NCBI GenBank assembly: GCA_000004985.1
Contig: GG738859.1
Direction: 5' to 3' (one strand)
Source of the DNA: Naegleria gruberi
Lineage: Eukaryota
Length of the DNA stretch: 64,000 bases
Shown: piece by piece, positions 10,950 to 54,127 of the stretch
Layout: the number at the start of each line of letters is the position of its first letter
How positions within the stretch are numbered: the stretch's first letter is position 1
Notes under the pieces: generated by a model
What the model was told of the DNA's origin: nothing
Databases searched by the model: none
Seen by the model: only the letters and a program-made list of their open reading frames with translations
Position numbers and translations under genes: made by a program

Positions 10950-12380
10950 ATGACGCAAGAGGATCCATACGGAAACGATGAAGATCTTCTCATAATTGAC
11001 AATCATAAACCCCTTAGTGTTGTTCAACAACTTGTACCAAAGGAGGAACCACCTCAGTCAAAACTTCCACTGGAAGAAATAGCAGAAAATGAGCGTTCAA
11101 CCTTAACAAAGAGTACCTCTCATCCTAATTCTCTTTCTCCTCGATTGAATTCGCTATCTATTGTGAATAGTGAAAATAATGGAGTTGTTTCTCAAAGTAG
11201 TATAAGAAGAAAATCAATTGTATCTAATAGTCCTATCATTCCTCCTAAAACCTTCTCATCACTTAAAGATGATTTTAAAATAATGTATAGAGTCTTTACT
11301 CATCTTACCTATGTAGAATTAATCCGAGTTGGAAATACTTGTTCTTTCTGGAGAATGATACTAAGAGATTGTGAAAAACTTAGCAAACAAAAAGAGAAAC
11401 TCATGGGTGTTGAGTACGTCGATTTATATGAGAGAGAATGCAAAAGATTATGGCCTTCTAATCATGATGTGTCGAGATACCCACCAGAGAGGCCACTTGC
11501 ACCAACTGCTGAAACATTCAAAGTGAAAAATGATGACGAGGAAGAAATTAAACCATCATCACAAAGAAGAGCATCCATCCTTGAACTTGACACAGGAGGT
11601 TATAGAAGAATGCTTCTCGATAGAAATAGAGAAAACGAGTTATTCCCTATTGTATATTTAGAATTTTCAAAAACATCAAGACAATCCTATCTAAGCAATA
11701 ACAGTAGTGAATTTGTGAGTTTGGGAAGAGTTGAAATTAAATTGAATAAGAAAGAAGCCCCTAAGGCAGCAGAGAATTTTAGATGTTTGTGCACAGGAGA
11801 AAAGGGATTATCTCCAAATTCAATTCCTCTCTATTTTAAGGGTGCAACCATGCACAAAGCACTCCAAGCCACTTTTATTCAGGGTGGTGATATTGTCTAT
11901 TCAGGTGCTAGTGGATGGTGGCAAGCTCAATATGGAAAGGAAATTGCATCATCAAGAAACGACCCAATTGCAGTAGAGGGAGAAGGATCTGAAAGCATTT
12001 ATGGACAAACTTTTGATAGTGACTCCAGTGAATTATGTCACAATCCTGGATCCGTTTCTTGTGTTGTTAAACCTGGTAATGGATGTCAATTTAATATTTG
12101 TGTAACAAAGTGTAAAGAGCTAGATGGAAAGCAAATTGTATTTGGAGAAGTTGTTAAAGGTCAAGAAGTTGTCAGAAAGATTGAAACAATTATCCTTATT
12201 GCTCAGCAAGCCGCACCTGAAGATCAAGAGGTGGTCTTTATCAAGGCTTGTGGTCAAACTGGTTTCAGTGGAAAAACATTCGACATGTGGACTCATGAAA
12301 TACTGACCGAGGTAATGGAAGAACCAAAAACAGTTGTACGAAATGAACCAGTGAAATCGAGAACATGCCAAATTTTATAA
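10950..12380 (+). CDS. F-box protein with a C-terminal cyclophilin-type peptidyl-prolyl isomerase domain
   Basis: F-box-like segment FKIMYRVFTHLTYVELIRVGNTCSFWRMIL. C-terminal LGRVEIKLNKKEAPKAAENFRCLCTGEKG...YFKGATMHKALQATFIQGGDIV...SIYGQTFDSD...GNGCQFNICVTKCKELDGKQIVFGEVVKGQEVVRKIE is collinear with cyclophilin A (GRVxFELFxDxxPKTAENFRALCTGEKG...HRxIPxFMxQGGDF...SIYGxxFxDE...GxxTNGSQFFITTxxTxWLDGKHVVFGxV). Confidence 0.7.
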   Translation: MTQEDPYGNDEDLLIIDNHKPLSVVQQLVPKEEPPQSKLPLEEIAENERSTLTKSTSHPNSLSPRLNSLSIVNSENNGVVSQSSIRRKSIVSNSPIIPPKTFSSLKDDFKIMYRVFTHLTYVELIRVGNTCSFWRMILRDCEKLSKQKEKLMGVEYVDLYERECKRLWPSNHDVSRYPPERPLAPTAETFKVKNDDEEEIKPSSQRRASILELDTGGYRRMLLDRNRENELFPIVYLEFSKTSRQSYLSNNSSEFVSLGRVEIKLNKKEAPKAAENFRCLCTGEKGLSPNSIPLYFKGATMHKALQATFIQGGDIVYSGASGWWQAQYGKEIASSRNDPIAVEGEGSESIYGQTFDSDSSELCHNPGSVSCVVKPGNGCQFNICVTKCKELDGKQIVFGEVVKGQEVVRKIETIILIAQQAAPEDQEVVFIKACGQTGFSGKTFDMWTHEILTEVMEEPKTVVRNEPVKSRTCQIL

Positions 12381-25424: not shown

Positions 25425-27566
25425 TTATTTTTCTTTTCTCTTGGCCATCTTTCTGTCGAGGGCACCCAAAACTTTCTTTCTCAAACGAATATTCTTTGGT
25501 GTAACTTCAATAAGTTCATCTTGTTGGATATAAGTCAAAACTTCTTCCAATTGGAATACTCGAGGTGGAGATAATCTGATAGTATCTTCCTTACCTGCTG
25601 CTCTCATGTTAGTCAAGTGTTTTTCCTTACAAGGATTAACTTCAATATCATTTTCTCTACTGTGTTCACCAACAATCATACCTTCATAACATTCAGCTGA
25701 TGGATGAATGAAAATATTACCTCTAGCTTCAAGTGGACCTAAAGCATAAGGTGTACCTTTACCACCTTCAAGTGAAACCATGACACCCTTTCTAGTCTTT
25801 TCAATAGGTCCCTTGTATGGTTCATAATCACTGAAAATGTGAGTGAGCATACCTTCACCACGAGTATCAGTTCTGAATTCAGAAGCATAACCAATGAGAC
25901 CACGAGTTGGAACTCTATAAAGTAATTTAGCCTTAATACCATCAACCTTATAATCAATCATTTCACCCTTTCTCTTAGCAAGCTTTTCCATACATTGAGC
26001 AGCCAAACCATTATCAACATCAATTGTAACTTCTTCAATTGGTTCCAAAATATCATCCTTACCACCACCTTCAACATCCTTAAAGATGACTCTTGGAGGA
26101 GAAACTTGGAATTCATAACCTTCTCTTCTCATATTTTCAATAAGTACAGCCAATTGCATTTCACCACGACCCATAATTTCAAAAGCTTCACCCATTGGTT
26201 TAATTGTTAAACTGACGTTCATTTCAGCTTCCTTCAATAAACGAGCACGAAGTTGAGTTGCAGAACATAATTTACCTTCCTTACCAGCCAATGGACTGTC
26301 ATTGACAAGGAACATTACAGACAAAATTGGAGGATCAATTGGTTTAGCTTCAATTGGAGTTGTAACTTGTTTAACATCACAAACTGTATCAGTAACACTG
26401 GCCTTTGAAATACCAGCAATGGATACAATAGAACCAGATAAAGCTCTCTTTACAGGTGTTCTTTGCATACCAATTCTTTGCATGACTTGTAAAACTTTAC
26501 CTTCTTCTAAAACTTCACCAGTTCTACTCATAACTTTAACTCTATCACCTGGTTTAACGGCACCACCATACATTTTACCAGTAACAATTCTACCGAAAAT
26601 TCTATCATAATCAACTGTACTAACAAGCATTTGGAATGGACTTGCAGCAGATGGTCTAACTTTTGGACATGGAATATGTTCCAAAATTGCTTCAAAGATT
26701 GGAGCTGTATTCTTTCTTTCATCCTTTTCAAAATCTTTAACTGCCCAACCACTCTTGGCACTGGCATATAAAATTGGGAAATCCAATTGTTCATCATTAG
26801 CTCCCAAATCAATAAATAAGTCATAAACTTCATTTTCAACTTCACCTCCAATACGAGCAGTTTCACGATCTGATTTGTTGAAAATAACAATTGGTTTCAA
26901 TCCATGTTCTAAGGCCTTTCTCAAAACAAACTTTGTTTGAGCCATAACACCTTCAGTAGCATCAACAAGTAAACAAACACCATCAACCATTGACATGACT
27001 CTTTCCACTTCACCTGAAAAATCAGCATGTCCTGGAGTATCAACAATATTGATAATATATTCACCCTTATATTGAACTGATGTCAATTTAGCCATAATTG
27101 TAATACCTCTTTCCTTTTCCAAGTCCAAACTATCCATTGTACGTTCTTCAGCATCATCTTTAATTGTACCTGTTTGTTTTAATAAACAATCAATCATTGT
27201 TGTTTTACCTGTATCGACGTGAGCAATAATTGCCAAGTTACGAATATTCTTTACTGTGACAAATCCTTCGGAATCAGCTTCAGATTCAACTTGAGGAATA
27301 TCTAAAATATTGATATAATTGGATCCAGATAAATCAACTTTGGAATCATGTTGACGTAAATTTGAGGAGAAGAAACGTTCTTGTTGTTGGGAAAGTAATC
27401 TTTGTAAAAGAGAATGTTTTTGGAGGAGATTAGAGTGCTCAAAGTGGAACCCTTGTGAAAAAACAGATGAGGCAGCCCCGATACAAGGTTTTGACTGTGA
27501 TGATGAAGAAGCAATCTTCCTGACGATACGACTACCACTGGCGACAAGGTTTTTAGAGTTGAGCAT
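25425..27566 (-). CDS. typA: TypA/BipA-family translational GTPase with a ~110-aa N-terminal extension (probable organellar, mitochondrial-type targeting)
   Basis: 713 aa. G-domain [26 protein letters not shown], then the TypA-specific C-terminal domains. The preceding ~110 aa are S/R-rich ([36 protein letters not shown]...), absent from bacterial TypA. Confidence 0.85.
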
Positions 27567-36403: not shown

Positions 36404-38316
36404 TTATAAAACCCATTCCCACTCACTGGCTATGTTAAAATCAACTTTCCCAAAGAAATCAATTTTCTGTGGCACAAAGAATGTCAAAATATGATCAATT
36501 GACTCATAGATTCCATCTCCAGTGAGTGCACAACCTGCTTGTATGTACCATTTTCTATCTGTTATGCTGTTCAGATTCAAATCATTGGCGATATTGGCGC
36601 AAGATGCAGCACTGAAGAAATCCTGCTTATTACAAAACACAACAATTGAAGTTTTCTTTGGAATACTTTCCAAAACAGTCCAAAGTAAATCTTTGGCTTG
36701 ATTCATTCTGCCAGTGTCTGTAGAATCAACAACAAATATTACAAAATCTGCTTCTTGTGCATAATCTTTCCACAAGTTGGCTAATCCACCAAAATCTTTC
36801 TATTCAAATATTAAATTAAGATGGTAAAAAATAAATTACTTACAATTGTAAAGTCAACATCTTTGTAATTAATCATTTGTGTGTTAAACTTATCAGTTGG
36901 AATAGTTAACACAACTTCACCCAAATACCACTTGTACAGGAGGGTTGTTTTACCACCACCATCAAGACCAATTAAAAATCCATTCTTTTTGGTTCGTTTC
37001 TTCTGTTTCTTCTCGAGGACCTTAATTTCTTGGAGACCCAATAGTTCTTTTGGAACTCCTCTTACGTGCAGAAGTGATTTGAGCATAATATCCTTCAGTT
37101 GATTTTTGGCAGATGTGAATAAATCTTCCTTTCCAAGATTTACAAAAATTGAAAAGAATGGAAACAAAATCTCATCATCATTAATTTTTGAAAAATCAAT
37201 AAACTCGAGCACGAATTTGTAAGCTTCCTCAAATCTTGCTTCATAATCTGTAACCACCCAAAAAATCAAAAAGTAAGTGACAGCCATCAAATCACCATTC
37301 GACAATAAACTCAATAGAATTTGTTTTAGCAACTCGAATGGCATTCTTCCAATCACCTTGTAATGAGCGTATTTGCTAACAACATAGCTAATCATTGCAT
37401 GCAAATCTTTCTCTGTAAATATTGGAACATGTTGCATCAAAGTTTGTTTGAATAACTTCTTGTCCTTTGTTGAATAACAACTGAGATCCTCTTCGAGCTC
37501 TGTATAACCAACCTTTCTATAAATTGGATCACATATAATGCAAGATGGTTGTGCAGAAATAATTGGAATAGTCTCTTCATAAATTATTGATTTGCAATCT
37601 TCAGATAATTCAATGGATGCAAGTGAAATAGTGAGAGCATTGTAGGCATTACAAACTTTGGAAATGGATTTTGTTAAACTCTCAACTTGATATTCATCTG
37701 CGATTTGTAGCAAACCTATTAAATCATCCATTTTAACAATAATTTCACTTTCTGATTTTGATTCGAATGTTAACTTATCAGAACCCAAATATCCAATGTG
37801 CACATAGTCAATCATCCATTCAAAATACTTATCAGATGTCTCAAGTGTCATTTCACTTGTTCTTGCTTCAATCATTTCACTATTTAACATTCTCTCAAAA
37901 ACTTTGCATTCTCTGGAAAGTATTTTCTTGGAAACTTGTAAATTGACCTTTCTATTAGGAATGCTAATATTGAATACATCTTGTTCATCAGTATTTTCAC
38001 TTTCGTATTTCACCAAAATGAAACCAACACCATTATTTTCAATTTTCTTTTTTACTTGATCGGAAGAGGCAACATTTTCTCTTCTCAGATAATAGCCGAT
38101 ATTTTGCTGAATGTAATCTATCAGAGAGGTGTTGATACCATAATTACTAACGAAACCTTTCCAATAACTTTCAAAATTGGTTGGAGGTACAACATCAGAT
38201 TGCATACCAAGAATATAATTCTGATCGAGTTCGGGAGAAATACAATACCAATGCGAGAGATTTTTAATTTCTTCTGTGTTGGCAATGGTATAATCAATAA
38301 TATCTTGGTTGATCAT
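36404..38316 (-). CDS. BTB/POZ-domain protein with a C-terminal ARF/ARL-type small-GTPase domain. Exons 38316..36844 and 36799..36404, 44-nt intron at 36843..36800 (GTAAGT...TTTGAATAG).
   Basis: Exon 1 contains a BTB-like segment (VNLQVSKKILSRECKVFERMLNSEMIE...LIGLLQIADEYQVESL) and ends with the ARF P-loop and switch I (FLIGLDGGGKTTLLYKWYLGEVVLTIPTDKFNTQMINYKDVDFTI). Exon 2 continues KDFGGLANLWKDYAQEADFVIFVVDSTD...VVFCNKQDF...WYIQAGCALTGDGIYESIDHIL. Switch II has Leu in place of the catalytic Gln. The track splits the gene into ORFs 36811..38316 and 36404..36775. Confidence 0.7.
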
Positions 38317-38381
38317 TTTTTCTAACTGTTTTCGTGGATAAATATTTTACAAAATATCTTTAATGTGAAAAAATGTTTTAT

Positions 38382-39452
38382 TTAGTTTCTTTCATTGGTA
38401 ACTTCACTCAATAATTGAGCAGTCCATTCATTAATTGAAGTGGTGGATGCATTTGGACAAAGATGAGCATGAGTAAATGCCATCCATCTTCCAGACTTGA
38501 TACATTTAGCACCAATAGACTTCAAACGTTCTCTCAATCCTCTATCGGATGTAACAAATAGACAAGAATCCAAAGTGCCAGCAATATTTTGTCTATTTGC
38601 CAATTCAACAAGCATATCATCAGCAATGGTGAAACCTTCCTTCTTGGCAGATGAAACAACAAATGTTCCATCATTGAAAGTACCATTAACTTGATTGCTT
38701 GAAGCATCGAAAACAACATGCATTAAATTCAATTTTTGATTTAAAGTTGTTTCAGAGAACTGAGAATACTTTTTGGCCATATGGACTAGTAATTCTTCAA
38801 CGAGGTGTTTCTTCTTACTCTTTAGAATTAAACCTCTCAAAGTACTGGTTTGGAAGAAGAGATTATTACCATCAATTACAATTCTACTAATTTCTGGATT
38901 CATCTTGGATGCAATTCCAGTACTTTCATCTACAAGAATTACATCATCAGTATGAATCTTTTGAGATTCTTCATTTTGGAAACGACGTTTTTCTTGACGT
39001 TCTTGTTTCTTGAGCTCTCTTTCAGCTTTTCTTTCACGCTTGTCATTGGAAACTTTATCCTTCTTTAACTTTTTCATTCTAATCTTGAAATCAACAATGA
39101 ATGATTCAACAGAAGTTGTGATGGAGGAATCAAGACGATGTTGAAGAATGGAATTAATAGAATTGGTCCAATCTTCATCAGTATGAAGGACTCTAAATTT
39201 TTTACCAGATTTTGCCTTAAAATCCTTAACCTTAACAATCTTGACAGATTTTGGTTCTTCATCATCATTCAAATTTGAATTAAATTGCTTTTCAATATAA
39301 TCTTTCAAATCTTGAAGATTTTCCAATGGAGAGAAAGAAGGTACACTTTGTTCAATAATTTGAATATCATCATGCTTCTTCATCATATAATTTAATTTAA
39401 TTCCAATTGGTTCGGAAGCATTGGTGTTGTTATTAATTGTGTTACTAATCAT
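38382..39452 (-). CDS. NYN (YacP-like) nuclease-domain protein, basic and coiled-coil rich
   Basis: 356 aa. The C-terminal IVIDGNNLFF...HVVFDASS...FVTSDRGLRERL follows the YacP/NYN pattern (VDGYN...VVFDA...TSD). The central part is KR/E-rich. Confidence 0.45.
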   Translation of the reverse strand: MISNTINNNTNASEPIGIKLNYMMKKHDDIQIIEQSVPSFSPLENLQDLKDYIEKQFNSNLNDDEEPKSVKIVKVKDFKAKSGKKFRVLHTDEDWTNSINSILQHRLDSSITTSVESFIVDFKIRMKKLKKDKVSNDKRERKAERELKKQERQEKRRFQNEESQKIHTDDVILVDESTGIASKMNPEISRIVIDGNNLFFQTSTLRGLILKSKKKHLVEELLVHMAKKYSQFSETTLNQKLNLMHVVFDASSNQVNGTFNDGTFVVSSAKKEGFTIADDMLVELANRQNIAGTLDSCLFVTSDRGLRERLKSIGAKCIKSGRWMAFTHAHLCPNASTTSINEWTAQLLSEVTNERN

Positions 39453-39927: not shown

Positions 39928-40851
39928 TTAATAGTAATCTCTACGACATGTTCTTTCAATATTTACAATTCTTCTATCTGAATCATCAACTATTACCTTA
40001 AGGTCTAAGTTGTCCGTATATCCTCCACCAGCATTATAATATGAAGGAAATATATATCCTTCAAGATTTGACAAATAAAGTGGCTCATGTCTATCTGATA
40101 ATTTTACATCATTGACATTCAATACTTCAATTAATTCAAAAGGAGATATCATTGGTGTGAAATTTTCAACATTCAAACCAATATCATATTGAATTACAGT
40201 TTCATGTGGCATTAAATATTGAGATAACTTGGAAAAATTGTCTGCATAATTATCAGCTTTCAAAACACAAGAAAGGAATGTCAATAGAGGTATTTCTGTT
40301 GTCATTTCGATACCTAACCTATTTTCACAAAGCTCAGCTTTCACTTTGTCAATAAATAAATTAGGAGTGTATCCAGAAACTGTCAATGAATCATATACAA
40401 TAGTGATAATGTAATGATCCAATATATCCTCTACATTCAATGGAATTTCCTTTCTAAATTTAAAAGATGCTCTATTTGCTTCTAAAAGCAGAGTATTTGT
40501 ACAATAATAATCTTCTCTATCATCTTCCTGTTTAAAGAATGATTGATAATTATCTGCAATCTCCAAACTATTAACTTCATATGGTTGATCTTTGGCATCA
40601 TTTTGTTTTTTAGGAATTTTCCAAGTAATTTCCAATAATTTAGATAACCAACAACAATTATTATCATTAGTAAGTGTATAATATTGATCAATCCTATAAT
40701 AATCACAATACATCATCTTCCAGAAAACTTGATTGGAATGAACACCTCTCTTCCACACATTATTCACTCTCCTGCACTTAATTATTTCATCTATCGGAAG
40801 GAATGACACAATGTGAGCAACTTCATGTACATGCAACTCGTGTTCGAACAT
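39928..40851 (-). CDS. F-box protein (307 aa)
   Basis: N-terminal F-box-like motif VHEVAHIVSFLPIDEIIKCRRVNNVWKRGVHSNQVFWKMMY. ATG at 40851 in an AAAAAATG context. Divergent from the next F-box gene across a 74-bp spacer. Confidence 0.6.
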   Translation of the reverse strand: MFEHELHVHEVAHIVSFLPIDEIIKCRRVNNVWKRGVHSNQVFWKMMYCDYYRIDQYYTLTNDNNCCWLSKLLEITWKIPKKQNDAKDQPYEVNSLEIADNYQSFFKQEDDREDYYCTNTLLLEANRASFKFRKEIPLNVEDILDHYIITIVYDSLTVSGYTPNLFIDKVKAELCENRLGIEMTTEIPLLTFLSCVLKADNYADNFSKLSQYLMPHETVIQYDIGLNVENFTPMISPFELIEVLNVNDVKLSDRHEPLYLSNLEGYIFPSYYNAGGGYTDNLDLKVIVDDSDRRIVNIERTCRRDYY

Positions 40852-52072: not shown

Positions 52073-53788
52073 TCAATGATTACTGTATTTTACATTTCCT
52101 TTTTTCAAATCAATCACTACAACAGTGTCCATAGCTGCTGTTTGAGTGATAAGAAATAACTCTCCATTACTTCTTACCTCTCCAAATACAGATTCTGATT
52201 CTCTATTTAAATTCATAGGTCCATTACCAGCTCGGTTGAGTGATACAAAGTGTTCACGACTTGGTTTCAAAACTATATTTTCTTTGTAAACTAATGAACC
52301 ATCATCTAGTCTGACTCGTTCTAAACGAGATTTCAAATAGGAAGGATCGATGTGAATAAACATTAAATCAAATAGATATCTCCTGTCTAGTTCATCAAGA
52401 GGAGTGTTGTCTCTTCTTTCTGACCTTCTCTTTCTAATAGTTACGCCATCAAGGGGAATCCACAAATATTTTGTTTCGAAAAAACCAGAATAAGATTGAA
52501 ACTCAAGATTTCTGCTCCACTTTTCAGTACAGTCCATTGAGATTAGCACATTGTCTGCTTTTCTATGTTGATATTTGAATTCTAGTAAGCAAACTCTATT
52601 GAGTGTATAGAGTATCACATTAGTTAACATGGTAACATGTTGGTCATTGTCATTTTGTTGCTCCACTGAAAGAGTAGCCATTTGTAAAATAATATCCTCA
52701 TAGAAATACATTAATATTCGTCCAGTCAAGGCATGAATGAGAATGTAACACTGGTTTTCATCTTCATCCATTGGTTGTAACAGGAAATTTCCAGAGACAA
52801 CATCCATCAAGCGCATTGGAATGTTCACTCCTGGAATACCCTTCACCTTATTAAATAGATTTCTAATATCAATACTCCACAATTTTTGTCCATTCTCAAT
52901 ATTCCAAGCATGGAATGTTTTAAATTCACTGCAAAATGTATCCACAATTCCGAATTCATTATTTACAGCATCGTTGAGATGAATTTTCTTGTTGGGGCCA
53001 TCTTCATTCTCCCAAACGAGACTTCCATTCGAACAATCCAGGACCTTGATTCCAGATGTGTTGATACCCATTAACACATAATTCTTTCTTGGGTAGTGAT
53101 AAATATTGGTACAATTGACTAACCTAGTCAAATAATTTTTCTTTTCTTTTTCAAATCTAAGCAGCGGTTCCAATCGAATCGACCAAACTTGATTTCCAAA
53201 CAAATCAAAATATTCTACAGTTTCATGTTTTACAATAATTCCTCCCATTTTCTTTGCGATTTGAGATTCTTCCAATCCTTTTTCTCCTCTCAATACCTTA
53301 TCCATATTTTCATTAGTAATATTTACAGAAATGTACAAATCAATATCATAAGTTAAGTTATCAAAACTATTATTCGGATGAAAAAAATGATAGCCATAAT
53401 ATCCACCCTCCTTATATTGTGCAGGAATATCAGAGAGACAGTAGGCACTCTTTTTCATCAGTGGAAAAGAACATAACTTGTATGAACCATTTCCATTCCG
53501 AATCATTTCAACAACACTCCCCCTAATTAGAAATTTCCTATAATTCAATCTCCTACTCAATTCTTTAAATAAATCCAACCAGGTAACTTTTTCAGTGATC
53601 AAACTTTTCCATTCTCTCCTAGCCTCTTCTCCATAATAATCAACGAAATAATTCATCCACAGAAAATCATTCGTATCTATCAATTGATGCCAACTCCGAC
53701 AACATGTAGAGATGTAGTTGAGGAGAAAATGTGGAGGAAGCATTGAAAAAATTGTCAACAATATTTCCTCTGGTACATTTTCAAACAT
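52073..53788 (-). CDS. F-box protein (~571 aa from the first ATG)
   Basis: The track start 53863 is an alternative TTG. The ATG at 53788 gives MFENVPEEILLTIFSMLPPHFLLNYISTCCRSWHQLIDTNDFLW (F-box). The C-terminal ~450 aa are uncharacterised. Confidence 0.55.
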   Translation of the reverse strand: MFENVPEEILLTIFSMLPPHFLLNYISTCCRSWHQLIDTNDFLWMNYFVDYYGEEARREWKSLITEKVTWLDLFKELSRRLNYRKFLIRGSVVEMIRNGNGSYKLCSFPLMKKSAYCLSDIPAQYKEGGYYGYHFFHPNNSFDNLTYDIDLYISVNITNENMDKVLRGEKGLEESQIAKKMGGIIVKHETVEYFDLFGNQVWSIRLEPLLRFEKEKKNYLTRLVNCTNIYHYPRKNYVLMGINTSGIKVLDCSNGSLVWENEDGPNKKIHLNDAVNNEFGIVDTFCSEFKTFHAWNIENGQKLWSIDIRNLFNKVKGIPGVNIPMRLMDVVSGNFLLQPMDEDENQCYILIHALTGRILMYFYEDIILQMATLSVEQQNDNDQHVTMLTNVILYTLNRVCLLEFKYQHRKADNVLISMDCTEKWSRNLEFQSYSGFFETKYLWIPLDGVTIRKRRSERRDNTPLDELDRRYLFDLMFIHIDPSYLKSRLERVRLDDGSLVYKENIVLKPSREHFVSLNRAGNGPMNLNRESESVFGEVRSNGELFLITQTAAMDTVVVIDLKKGNVKYSNH

Positions 53789-54127
53789 TTTTTTTGTTTT
53801 TACAATCAACCTTGGCAACTTTCCAAAATGAATCTGAATTAAAAGTAGTTGAAAAGAGTTCAAACTTCATTGACTTGCTTTTCAATTGTCATGTGTGTTC
53901 TTATTTCATTTAATGAAGAAATTTAAGAAAATTGAATGGAATTACAAGTTCCATTTTCACAAATTTTTGTCCTTGATTACATGCCACCCTTTCCGAAATC
54001 TCTCATTCAAATTTCTAATATTTCAATTATTTTGTGATTAAGATGGAGAGAAAAATTCACCATCAACATGTTGATGTTAATAGTAAACAAATATTTTTTA
54101 AAATTAAAAATTAAAAAAAAATTAGTG

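What the first reader, a model, noticed from the sequence alone, without database searches (positions are those of the whole stretch)
36404..38316. BTB-domain protein fused to an ARF-type GTPase whose switch II carries a natural Gln-to-Leu (GTP-locked type) change
A two-exon minus-strand gene (44-nt intron at 36843..36800) encodes about 620 aa. It has an N-terminal region with a BTB/POZ-like segment and a complete C-terminal ARF/ARL G-domain (GLDGGGKTTLLYK, TIPT, NKQD, C-terminal WYIQ..TGDG).

The motif that is WDVGGQDKIRPLW in canonical ARFs reads KDFGGLANLW here. The catalytic glutamine is replaced by leucine, the substitution used experimentally to lock ARFs in the GTP state, and three switch-II residues are deleted. 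There is no N-terminal myristoylation glycine because the G-domain is internal.

I know Rho+BTB (RhoBTB) but not an ARF+BTB architecture. A Cul3-adaptor-type BTB domain tethered to an intrinsically hydrolysis-defective ARF, in a locus full of SCF F-box genes, suggests an uncharacterised ubiquitin-ligase/GTPase signalling module.
Basis: partly seen in the sequence, partly recalled or inferred. Interest (0 to 1): 0.7.

Follow-up and report, generated by a model that had tools for sequence, protein, structure and literature searches.

The report
Naegleria BTB–Arf fusion protein, already catalogued
This is a real two-exon gene of the amoeba Naegleria gruberi that joins a ubiquitin-ligase-adaptor-type BTB domain to an ARF GTPase lacking its catalytic glutamine, but the same protein (NgrArf1j) and its BTB+ARF architecture were already listed in a 2021 survey of the ARF family, so only the pattern of glutamine loss adds anything.

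Summary
A minus-strand gene (38316..36404) with one 44-nt GT..AG intron (36843..36800) encodes 622 aa. [quoted passage not shown] Switch II reads DFGGLANLW: Leu follows DxxG, the loop is three residues short, and it contains no Gln.

The architecture is not new. The spliced protein is identical (622/622) to NgrArf1j / XP_002679090.1. Vargová et al. 2021 list it as one of three N. gruberi Arf1-group proteins with a BTB domain.

The family is confined to Naegleria and Willaertia. The intron lies at the same spot in the N. lovaniensis orthologue. The catalytic position varies across the family (Q, S, T, A, N, C, L), so Gln was lost several times. The 2021 paper does not mention this.

The BTB profile matches SPOP best and keeps the Cul3-contacting φ-x-E motif (M148-I149-E150).

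The most likely function is a Cul3 substrate receptor whose GAP-insensitive Arf domain sits where a Kelch domain would. This is inferred, not shown. The "locus full of F-box genes" claim is overstated: one clear F-box lies 14 kb away. Interest is low to moderate.

The parts
36404..38316 (-). Complete coding region of the BTB-Arf gene (NgrArf1j / XP_002679090.1), 622 aa, including stop codon 36404..36406
   Evidence: The spliced translation is identical, 622/622, to the NgrArf1j sequence in supplementary file 2 of PMC8358228.
36844..38316 (-). Exon 1 (aa 1-491): N-terminal region, BTB, helical region, linker, and the first third of the G domain (P-loop, switch I, beta2-beta3)
   Evidence: The ORF continues only 10 codons past the donor before a stop.
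36800..36843 (-). Intron, 44 nt, GTAAGT...ATAG, phase 0, between beta3 and the DxxG motif
   Evidence: The N. lovaniensis orthologue has its single 165-nt intron at the homologous position..VDVVM|TEVGG... Several metagenome gene models of the family are truncated at this same spot.
36404..36799 (-). Exon 2 (aa 492-622): switch II, G4, G5 and the C-terminal tail
38242..38256 (-). N-terminal SHWYC motif (aa 21-25), conserved across the family
   Evidence: Invariant S21 H22 W23 Y24 C25 in alignment A2. Visible as SHWY/SHHY in A3. Its position near the N terminus in all members supports the start codon at 38316.
37651..37968 (-). BTB/POZ domain (aa 117-222)
37867..37875 (-). M148-I149-E150, aligned to the φ-x-E Cul3-contact motif of SPOP (M233-E234-E235)
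   Evidence: Family profile against PDB: consensus 'mlksemiEsknnemti' aligns to SPOP 'MFEHEMEESKKNRVEI'. M148 and E150 are invariant in A2. The motif is described in PMC3616122.
37057..37650 (-). All-helical region (aa 223-420), BACK-like, with family-invariant W353
36979..37056 (-). Low-confidence basic linker (aa 421-446, ...EKKQKKRTKKNG) that replaces the myristoylated amphipathic helix of free ARFs
   Evidence: pLDDT below 50 over aa 421-449. Sequence.
36488..37020 (-). Arf-type G domain (aa 433-595; the span includes the intron)
   Evidence: Pfam PF00025, E = 4.8e-40, a single stretch matching profile positions 4-170 of 174. Best PDB hits are ARF1 at 139 bits, above ARF6 and ARL1 at about 115. 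Identity to human ARF1 is 45%.
36946..36969 (-). P-loop G450-LDGGGK-T457 (G1)
36770..36796 (-). Switch II D493-FGGLANL-W501. Leu497 (36782..36784) sits at the catalytic-Gln position and the loop is 3 residues shorter than in ARF1
36620..36631 (-). G4 motif N548-K-Q-D551
36449..36457 (-). F606-F607-G608 in the C-terminal tail. An aromatic-F-G motif recurs in the Naegleria family members
   Evidence: Alignment (DFFGKV, SHFGTM, THFGRV, YFGSL, IFGSI, HFGLF, RFGEI). In the orthologue model the tail is disordered, pLDDT below 50.

Best explanation
Shown. The locus is the Naegleria gruberi gene for NgrArf1j (XP_002679090.1). It belongs to a small family found only in Naegleria, Willaertia and a few unnamed environmental contigs. 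The architecture is: N-terminal SHWY motif, BTB, BACK-like helical region, basic linker, ARF1-derived G domain, short C-terminal tail.

Inferred mechanism.
1. The BTB (plus the following helices) dimerises and binds Cul3 through its conserved φ-x-E surface, making the protein a CRL3 substrate receptor.
2. The Arf domain occupies the position that the Kelch propeller has in BTB-BACK-Kelch adaptors. It would act as the recognition or regulatory module, presenting an Arf-binding partner for ubiquitination, or gating Cul3 binding as the Rho domain does in RhoBTB.
3. All nucleotide-binding motifs are kept, so the domain should still bind GTP.
4. The catalytic Gln is replaced by Leu, switch II is shortened, and no N-terminal helix holds the GDP form. 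The domain should therefore be insensitive to ArfGAPs and sit mostly in a GTP-like state.

This paralogue would then be a constitutive receptor rather than a cycling one. Paralogues that keep Gln (for example XP_002679438.1) could still be switched.
For: Identity and gene model:
- 622/622 match to NgrArf1j.
- The Arf HMM match is continuous across the junction.
- Neither exon alone encodes a complete G domain.
- The intron position is conserved in the N. lovaniensis orthologue and implied by truncated models in other members.

Family range:
- A profile search of 1.84 billion representatives gave 11 hits below 1e-30. All are from N. gruberi, N. lovaniensis, N. fowleri, Willaertia magna or unnamed contigs.

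Cul3-adaptor character:
- The family BTB profile matches SPOP best (5.8e-10) and the φ-x-E motif aligns.
- M148 and E150 are invariant in alignment A2, which holds the window protein and two family members.

G domain:
- G1, the switch-I Thr, DxxG, NKQD and CA(L) are kept; Gln is absent.
- The orthologue Nlov_007058 groups with the window protein at 100% bootstrap. It also lacks Gln (Thr) and W66.

Precedents from the literature:
- RhoBTB: the GTPase domain binds the first BTB and blocks Cul3, and its switch II carries a 2-residue deletion (PMC4931677).
- Arl13b naturally lacks the switch-II Gln (PMC6140319).
- Vargová et al. interpret BTB and F-box fusions as recruitment of ARFs into ubiquitin circuits.
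Against: - There are no experimental data on Cul3 binding, nucleotide state, partners or expression.
- The BTB Pfam score for this protein is only just above threshold (23.1 against 20.5).
- No Pfam BACK hit was found.
- Whether Naegleria has a Cul3 orthologue was not tested, and no literature was found.
- The effector surface is strongly altered (I49D, G50K, W66K, H80D, shortened switch II). The domain may not behave like ARF1-Q71L at all.
- The full-length model of the orthologue has pTM 0.60, so it gives no confident arrangement of the domains relative to each other, and its C-terminal tail is predicted disordered.
Confidence: 0.4

Rival explanations
1. Degenerate pseudo-GTPase. The Arf domain of this paralogue has lost switching altogether and serves only as a static protein-binding or structural module. 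The Gln loss reflects relaxed constraint rather than a selected GTP-locked state.
For: - The catalytic position is highly variable across the family (Q, S, T, A, N, C, L).
- The window protein and its orthologue sit on long branches and share only about 35% identity.
- The G domain is 45% identical to ARF1, against 76% for canonical NgrArf1a.
- Switch I, the interswitch and switch II are all altered (I49D, G50K, W66K, 3-residue deletion).
Against: Every residue needed for nucleotide and Mg binding is retained in the window protein: GxxxxGKT, the switch-I Thr, the DxxG Asp and Gly, NKQD and CA. Its orthologue keeps most but not all of them (DxxG reads EVGG, NKxD reads NMQD, CA reads CT). Such retention in the window protein, despite the deep divergence between the two, argues for continued selection on nucleotide binding.
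Confidence: 0.25
2. The BTB is an oligomerisation module only, with no Cul3 involved. It would make a dimeric or multimeric Arf scaffold, as BTB domains do in ZBTB transcription factors or some KCTDs, for example to cluster an Arf-effector interaction.
For: - No Pfam BACK domain was detected.
- Cul3 in Naegleria was not verified.
Against: - The best sequence-profile match is SPOP, and the φ-x-E motif is conserved across the family.
- The top structural matches are consistently Cul3 adaptors, including BTB-BACK alignments of more than 260 columns.
Confidence: 0.2
3. Gene-model artefact: two separate genes, a BTB protein and a truncated Arf fragment, wrongly joined.
For: The intron is short (44 nt). 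Exon 2 has an in-frame TTG/ATG-initiated ORF (36404..36775).
Against: - Exon 1 already contains the P-loop and switch I, and exon 2 the rest. Neither is a viable G domain alone.
- The Arf HMM alignment is continuous over the junction.
- The donor and acceptor are canonical.
- The same intron position occurs in the N. lovaniensis orthologue.
- Full-length BTB-Arf relatives exist in four species.
- The RefSeq model is identical.
Confidence: 0.02

Closest known systems
NgrArf1j (XP_002679090.1) and its paralogues NgrArf1k and NgrArf1l, the Naegleria gruberi BTB-containing Arf1-group proteins catalogued by Vargová et al. 2021 (Genome Biol Evol 13:evab157, PMC8358228)
   Same: The sequence is identical to NgrArf1j (622/622) and the gene model is the same. 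The BTB + Arf architecture is explicitly recorded in that paper's supplementary table 1.
   Different: Nothing differs in sequence. The paper's main text contains none of the terms glutamine, catalytic, Q71, GTP hydrolysis or switch II. The following are therefore added here:
- Q-to-L with a 3-residue deletion in this protein.
- Recurrent Gln loss across the family.
- The φ-x-E motif.
- The conserved intron.
- A fourth N. gruberi member (XP_002679438.1).
- The N. fowleri, N. lovaniensis and Willaertia members.
RhoBTB1/2/3 (atypical Rho GTPases, Cul3 adaptors)
   Same: A small-GTPase domain and a BTB domain share one polypeptide. The GTPase domain is atypical, with a deletion in switch II. RhoBTB forms Cul3 ligases and is proposed to be regulated by an intramolecular GTPase-BTB contact rather than by GEFs and GAPs (PMC4931677).
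   Different: The GTPase here is Arf-type, not Rho-type, and is C-terminal, not N-terminal. There is one BTB rather than two. The fusion is independent and confined to one lineage. No homology exists beyond the shared domain superfamilies.
BTB-BACK-Kelch (KLHL/KBTBD) and MATH-BTB (SPOP) Cul3 substrate receptors
   Same: The BTB has a conserved φ-x-E motif. These proteins give the best sequence-profile match (SPOP) and the best structural matches (KBTBD4, SPOP, KLHL3, KLHL11, KEAP1). The helical extension after the BTB lies where the 3-box/BACK lies. A C-terminal globular domain sits where Kelch sits.
   Different: The C-terminal module is an Arf G domain, not a Kelch propeller or MATH domain. 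The BACK region is not detectable by Pfam. An extra beta-rich N-terminal segment and the SHWY motif are present.
TRIM23/ARD1 (RING-B-box-coiled-coil E3 ligase with a C-terminal ARF domain)
   Same: An E3-ligase-related N-terminal part is fused to a C-terminal ARF domain that lacks a free myristoylated N terminus.
   Different: TRIM23 is itself a RING E3 and its ARF domain keeps the catalytic Gln (from my own knowledge of the protein). Here no RING or B-box was found, and the ligase link would be indirect, through Cul3.
Arl13b and the experimental ARF1-Q71L mutant
   Same: Arl13b is an ARF-family member that naturally lacks the switch-II catalytic Gln (PMC6140319). Q71L is the standard GAP-resistant mutant, and ARF1-Q71L PDB entries were the top sequence hits for this protein.
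   Different: Arl13b is an ancient ciliary paralogue with a coiled-coil tail, not a BTB fusion. Q71L mutants keep a full-length switch II and W66, whereas this protein has a 3-residue shorter switch II and Lys at the W66 position.

Membership tests
ARF family small GTPases (Pfam PF00025) | Significant match to the Arf profile over the whole G domain | tested here: met
   E = 4.8e-40, 137.3 bits (cut-off 22.3), profile positions 4-170 of 174. ARF1 structures are the best PDB hits at 139 bits.
ARF family small GTPases (Pfam PF00025) | Nucleotide-binding motifs: G1 GxxxxGK[ST], the switch-I Thr, G3 DxxG, G4 NKxD, G5 (C/S)A | tested here: met
   GLDGGGKT, TIPT, DFGG, NKQD and CAL are all present.
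ARF family small GTPases (Pfam PF00025) | Catalytic glutamine directly after DxxG (ARF1 Q71) | tested here: not met
   Leu497 follows DFGG and there is no Gln anywhere in switch II. No alternative splice restores one.
ARF family small GTPases (Pfam PF00025) | N-terminal myristoylated Gly2 and amphipathic helix | tested here: not met
   The G domain starts at about aa 433 of 622 and is preceded by a basic, low-confidence linker. Vargová supplementary file 8 lists 'no' for NgrArf1j in the column where the canonical Arfs have 'yes' and myristoylation predictions.
ARF family small GTPases (Pfam PF00025) | Conserved effector surface (I49, G50, F51, W66, Y81) | tested here: not met
   I49D, G50K and W66K are changed. 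F51 and Y81 are kept.
BTB/POZ domain (Pfam PF00651) | Profile match above the gathering threshold, and the BTB fold | tested here: met
Cul3 (CRL3) substrate adaptors | φ-x-E motif in the alpha3/alpha3.1 region that inserts into Cul3 | tested here: met
   M148-I149-E150 aligns to SPOP M233-E234-E235. M148 and E150 are invariant in alignment A2 of the window protein and two family members. The motif definition comes from PMC3616122. This is sequence-level only.
Cul3 (CRL3) substrate adaptors | 3-box / BACK helical extension after the BTB | tested here: inconclusive
Cul3 (CRL3) substrate adaptors | Physical binding to Cul3, and a Cul3 orthologue in the same organism | not tested
   Binding needs an experiment. 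Cul3 in Naegleria was not searched for, and two literature searches found nothing.
RhoBTB subfamily | N-terminal Rho-type GTPase followed by two BTB domains and a BACK/3-box region | tested here: not met
   The GTPase is Arf-type (Ras/Rho profile only 18.3 bits, below cut-off) and C-terminal. Only one BTB is present. The resemblance is an analogy, not membership.
TRIM23/ARD1-type ARF fusions | RING, B-box and coiled-coil N-terminal to the ARF domain | tested here: not met
   No RING, B-box or TRIM domains appear in the Pfam scan at E ≤ 1.
Naegleria/Willaertia BTB-Arf family (NgrArf1j/k/l of Vargová et al. 2021) | SHWY motif, BTB, helical region with invariant Trp, and an Arf1-group G domain, with an intron between beta3 and DxxG | tested here: met
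   Identical to NgrArf1j. Family alignment. Sister to N. lovaniensis C9374_007058 with 100% bootstrap. Conserved intron.

The most novel reading that the evidence does not exclude
The Naegleria/Willaertia BTB-BACK-like-Arf proteins are Cul3 substrate receptors in which an Arf G domain has replaced the Kelch or MATH module as a nucleotide-gated recognition domain. Paralogues that keep Gln recruit substrates only while GTP-bound and are switched off by ArfGAPs. Repeated, independent loss of the catalytic Gln (L, T, S, A, N, C) has turned other paralogues, including this one, into constitutive, GAP-insensitive receptors. That would be a natural series of 'Q71L-like' alleles coupling Arf signalling to ubiquitination.
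Probability: 0.25. Interest if true: 0.6.

Novelty: already known. Interest (0 to 1): 0.3.

Why it matters
The finding matters little as a discovery. The gene is annotated in RefSeq, and the BTB+ARF architecture of this exact protein is tabulated in a published eukaryote-wide ARF survey. That survey already drew the link to ubiquitin ligases.

What is added here is modest but testable:
- The family spans Naegleria, including the pathogen N. fowleri, and Willaertia.
- It carries the Cul3-contact motif.
- It has lost the catalytic glutamine of the Arf domain several times while keeping the nucleotide-binding residues.

If the Cul3-receptor idea were confirmed, it would be a second, independent GTPase+BTB invention alongside RhoBTB. 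It would also be a natural experiment on what happens when an Arf switch is fixed in one state.

Tried and rejected
- The spliced protein could not be submitted to the look-up of encoding contigs or the search of protein representatives. I used exon-1 translations and the N. lovaniensis orthologue instead.
- The neighbouring 356-aa ORF is not on record in the contig index. The organism was identified through the literature instead.
- Adding exon 2 as a separate alignment row misaligned its N-terminal part, so I dropped it.
- A single-sequence search of the BTB region against PDB found nothing relevant. A family profile was needed.
- The afdb50 fold library was unavailable.
- Literature searches for Naegleria with cullin or Cul3 gave nothing usable.
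- Two word-index homologue searches returned only two relatives. The exhaustive HMM search was needed to see the family.
- I considered and rejected an alternative acceptor restoring Gln, a two-gene model, membership in RhoBTB or TRIM23, and functional meaning of the F-box neighbours.
- The full-length orthologue model gave no confident docking of the C-terminal FG tail.
Full report
**1. What is in the sequence**

On the minus strand an ATG at 38316 opens a 501-codon ORF. The Arf-like part of that ORF breaks off after ...NYKDVDFTI and reaches a stop 10 codons later. A second ORF (to the stop at 36404) starts immediately after an in-frame TAG and reads KDFGGLANLWKDY....

Removing 36843..36800 (44 nt, GTAAGT...ATAG) joins 491 codons of exon 1 in frame to exon 2. 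The result is a 622-aa protein.

A Pfam scan of the spliced protein gives Arf PF00025 at E = 4.8e-40. The match is one uninterrupted stretch, aa 433-595, covering profile positions 4-170 of 174, and it runs straight across the junction. BTB PF00651 scores 23.1 bits against a gathering cut-off of 20.5, over aa 117-222. Against PDB sequences the best hits are ARF1 (139 bits), ahead of ARF6 and ARL1 (about 115).

The three-frame translation around the junction contains no other GGx or GGQ coding option. The acceptor AG is the last two bases of the in-frame TAG that precedes K-D-F-G-G, so no acceptor further upstream can keep the frame open.

**2. Switch II**

ARF1 reads FTVWDVGGQDKIRPLWRHY. This protein reads FTIKDFGGLAN---LWKDY.

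HMMER places the 3-residue gap after GGLAN, while MAFFT places it directly after GG. The top HMMER targets were themselves ARF1-Q71L entries, which favours the first placement. The ambiguity does not change the substance. The residue that follows the DxxG glycine in the chain is Leu497, the loop is three residues short, and it contains no Gln.

All nucleotide-binding elements are kept: GLDGGGKT, the switch-I Thr in TIPT, DFGG, NKQD and CAL. Several effector-surface residues are changed: I49D, G50K, W66K and H80D. G-domain identity to human ARF1 is 45%, against 76% for the canonical N. gruberi Arf1a.

**3. Identity of the gene**

A literature search led to Vargová et al. 2021 (PMC8358228). [quoted passage not shown]

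The supplementary table lists three N. gruberi Arf1-group proteins with BTB: NgrArf1j (XP_002679090.1), NgrArf1k and NgrArf1l. The NgrArf1j sequence in supplementary file 2 is identical to my spliced translation, 622/622.

The window is therefore N. gruberi. The gene model with the 44-nt intron is the RefSeq model, and the architecture is already on record. The main text of that paper contains none of the terms glutamine, catalytic, Q71, GTP hydrolysis or switch II.

**4. The family**

Word-index searches found only an N. lovaniensis protein (P0001, C9374_007058, 669 aa, 33% identity over 92% of the query, BTB+Arf) and an ENA fragment.

A profile built from the alignment A2 (exon-1 translation of the window protein plus those two) was run against 1.84 billion representatives and gave 11 hits below 1e-30. 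By cluster look-up these come from N. lovaniensis, N. fowleri, N. gruberi (a further paralogue, XP_002679438.1), Willaertia magna, and unnamed ENA, JGI or Logan contigs. Weaker hits are ordinary ARFs matching only the P-loop end of the profile.

Shared features across the family:
- An N-terminal SHWY(C) motif.
- The BTB domain.
- A helical region with an invariant Trp (W353).
- The Arf domain.
- In the Naegleria members, a short aromatic-F-G motif in the C-terminal tail.

An NJ tree places the window protein as sister to N. lovaniensis C9374_007058 with 100% bootstrap, on long branches.

The N. lovaniensis gene has a single 165-nt GTAAGT intron at the homologous position...NVDVVM|TEVGGT.... 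Several prokaryote-style gene calls on metagenome contigs end at this same spot with V-S or V-G read from the GT donor. This conserved intron, plus the fact that neither exon alone encodes a complete G domain, makes the two-gene alternative very unlikely.

**5. The catalytic position across the family**

| Residue after DxxG | Members |
|---|---|
| Gln (canonical WDVGGQ(D/E)KIRPLWRHY) | N. lovaniensis C9374_006967, W. magna ABK040_011874/010491, N. gruberi XP_002679438.1 |
| Ser | N. fowleri FDP41_000327, N. lovaniensis C9374_002129 |
| Thr | N. lovaniensis C9374_007058 |
| Ala | NgrArf1k |
| Asn, with an insertion | NgrArf1l |
| Cys | W. magna ABK040_011871 |
| Leu, with a 3-residue deletion | the window protein |

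Sources.

Given the tree, Gln was lost on several separate branches, probably about four. One of these is inside a recent Willaertia duplicate pair in which one copy keeps Gln. The ancestor was thus an ordinary ARF1-like domain, and hydrolysis competence has been dispensable repeatedly in this fused context. Nucleotide-binding residues were mostly kept. The window protein and its orthologue are the most derived pair, since both also lack W66.

**6. The N-terminal part**

An AlphaFold2 model of the exon-1 protein, built with a 16-sequence family alignment, has mean pLDDT 70 and pTM 0.71. pLDDT is 83-96 over the BTB core, and a run of helices extends to residue 419.

A profile of the family BTB region matches SPOP best in PDB (5.8e-10). 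It aligns the family consensus ...mlksemiEsknnemti... with SPOP ...MFEHEMEESKKNRVEI.... Window residues M148-I149-E150 therefore fall on SPOP M233-E234-E235. This is the φ-x-E motif, whose hydrophobic residue buries the most surface in BTB-Cul3 complexes and whose Glu is needed for binding (PMC3616122). M148 and E150 are invariant in the three-sequence alignment A2.

Pfam does not detect a BACK domain in any member, so "BACK-like" rests on the fold alignments only.

A full-length model of the orthologue (pLDDT 72.7, pTM 0.60) shows a well-formed G domain and a disordered C-terminal tail. With pTM 0.60 it gives no confident arrangement of the domains relative to each other.

**7. Surroundings**

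Of 28 large ORFs scanned in the window, only 52073..53863 has an F-box above threshold (F-box-like 38.6 bits). ORFs 39928..40851 (17.8 bits) and 10950..12380 (19.0 bits, in a cyclophilin) are below the 24.3-bit cut-off.

The direct neighbours are Med4, two ORFs without Pfam hits, a GH63 glucosidase, HisRS and a 3β-HSD-like protein. Further out lie BipA/TypA, RIB43A, MDH, Tim17, Tsr1, CCDC22 and a macro-domain protein.

The N. lovaniensis orthologue sits among entirely different genes: A2M-like, a guanylate cyclase and an EF-hand protein. The "locus full of SCF F-box genes" is therefore not supported, and it would carry little weight in a eukaryote anyway.

**8. Most likely mechanism**

Shown: the identity, the architecture, retention of nucleotide-binding motifs, absence of the catalytic Gln, the φ-x-E motif, the conserved intron and the lineage restriction.

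Inferred:
- The BTB and helical region dimerises and binds Cul3.
- The Arf domain sits where Kelch sits in BTB-BACK-Kelch receptors and is the recognition or regulatory module.
- Lacking Gln, and lacking an N-terminal helix to stabilise the GDP form, it would be GAP-insensitive and mostly in a GTP-like state. This paralogue would then be constitutive.

A RhoBTB-style variant is equally possible: the G domain folds back on the BTB and gates Cul3 binding (PMC4931677). ARF-family members that naturally lack the Gln exist, for example Arl13b (PMC6140319), so the substitution is unusual but not unprecedented.

Rivals:
- A pseudo-GTPase that no longer switches. Fast evolution and the altered switch regions favour this; the intact binding motifs argue against it.
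- A BTB used only for oligomerisation. This cannot be excluded without a Cul3 binding test.
- A gene-model artefact. This is effectively excluded.

**9. Verdict**

The protein and its architecture are already known (RefSeq; Vargová et al. 2021), and no function has been tested. The added value is the family-wide picture of repeated catalytic-Gln loss together with a conserved Cul3-contact motif. Interest is low to moderate (0.3).

Noticed in passing
window 36449..36457 (aa 606-608); also the C-termini of P0001, P0004, P0152 and P0154, and NgrArf1k/l: A short aromatic-Phe-Gly motif recurs in the tail after the G domain in the Naegleria BTB-Arf proteins (DFFGKV, SHFGTM, THFGRV, YFGSL, IFGSI, HFGLF, RFGEI). 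It is absent from the Willaertia members. In the orthologue model the tail is disordered.
   Followed up: partly
window 38242..38256 (aa 21-25): An SHWY(C) motif lies close to the N terminus, followed by a conserved ..IQ....YYL.. segment. It is shared by nearly all family members, lies upstream of the BTB, and has no Pfam match. Its function is unknown.
   Followed up: partly
window 10950..12380 (+): A 476-aa ORF has a clear cyclophilin domain (Pro_isomerase, 2.7e-27, aa 257-417) preceded by a sub-threshold F-box-like match (19.0 bits, aa 111-141). This may be an F-box-cyclophilin fusion.
   Followed up: no
window 25425..27566 (-): A 713-aa ORF is a full BipA/TypA-type translational GTPase (GTP_EFTU 4.7e-53, BipA_C 1.4e-45). 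This family is bacterial or organellar and is here encoded in the Naegleria nuclear genome.
   Followed up: no
window 52073..53863 (-) and 39928..40851 (-): These are the only F-box candidates near the gene. The first is a clear F-box protein (38.6 bits) with a weak beta-propeller-like hit. The second is only a sub-threshold F-box-like match (17.8 bits).
   Followed up: yes
window 38317..38381: Only 65 nt separate the stop codon of the upstream same-strand 356-aa ORF (38382..39452, no Pfam hit) from the ATG of the BTB-Arf gene. The intergenic spacing is very compact.
   Followed up: no
Related loci: W. magna contig carrying ABK040_011871 and ABK040_011874 (P0160/P0012 and P0006); N. lovaniensis contig PYSW02000002.1 carrying C9374_006967 and C9374_007058 (P0004, P0001; L001): Family members lie close together on the same contig. 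In Willaertia the locus tags are three apart, and one copy keeps Gln while the other has Cys. This suggests local duplication followed by loss of the catalytic residue in one copy.
   Followed up: partly
Protein database searches: The window's own protein (XP_002679090.1) and a neighbouring ORF were not found in the large protein and contig collections, although another N. gruberi paralogue (XP_002679438.1, P0152) is present. The organism had to be identified from a paper's supplementary sequences.
   Followed up: yes
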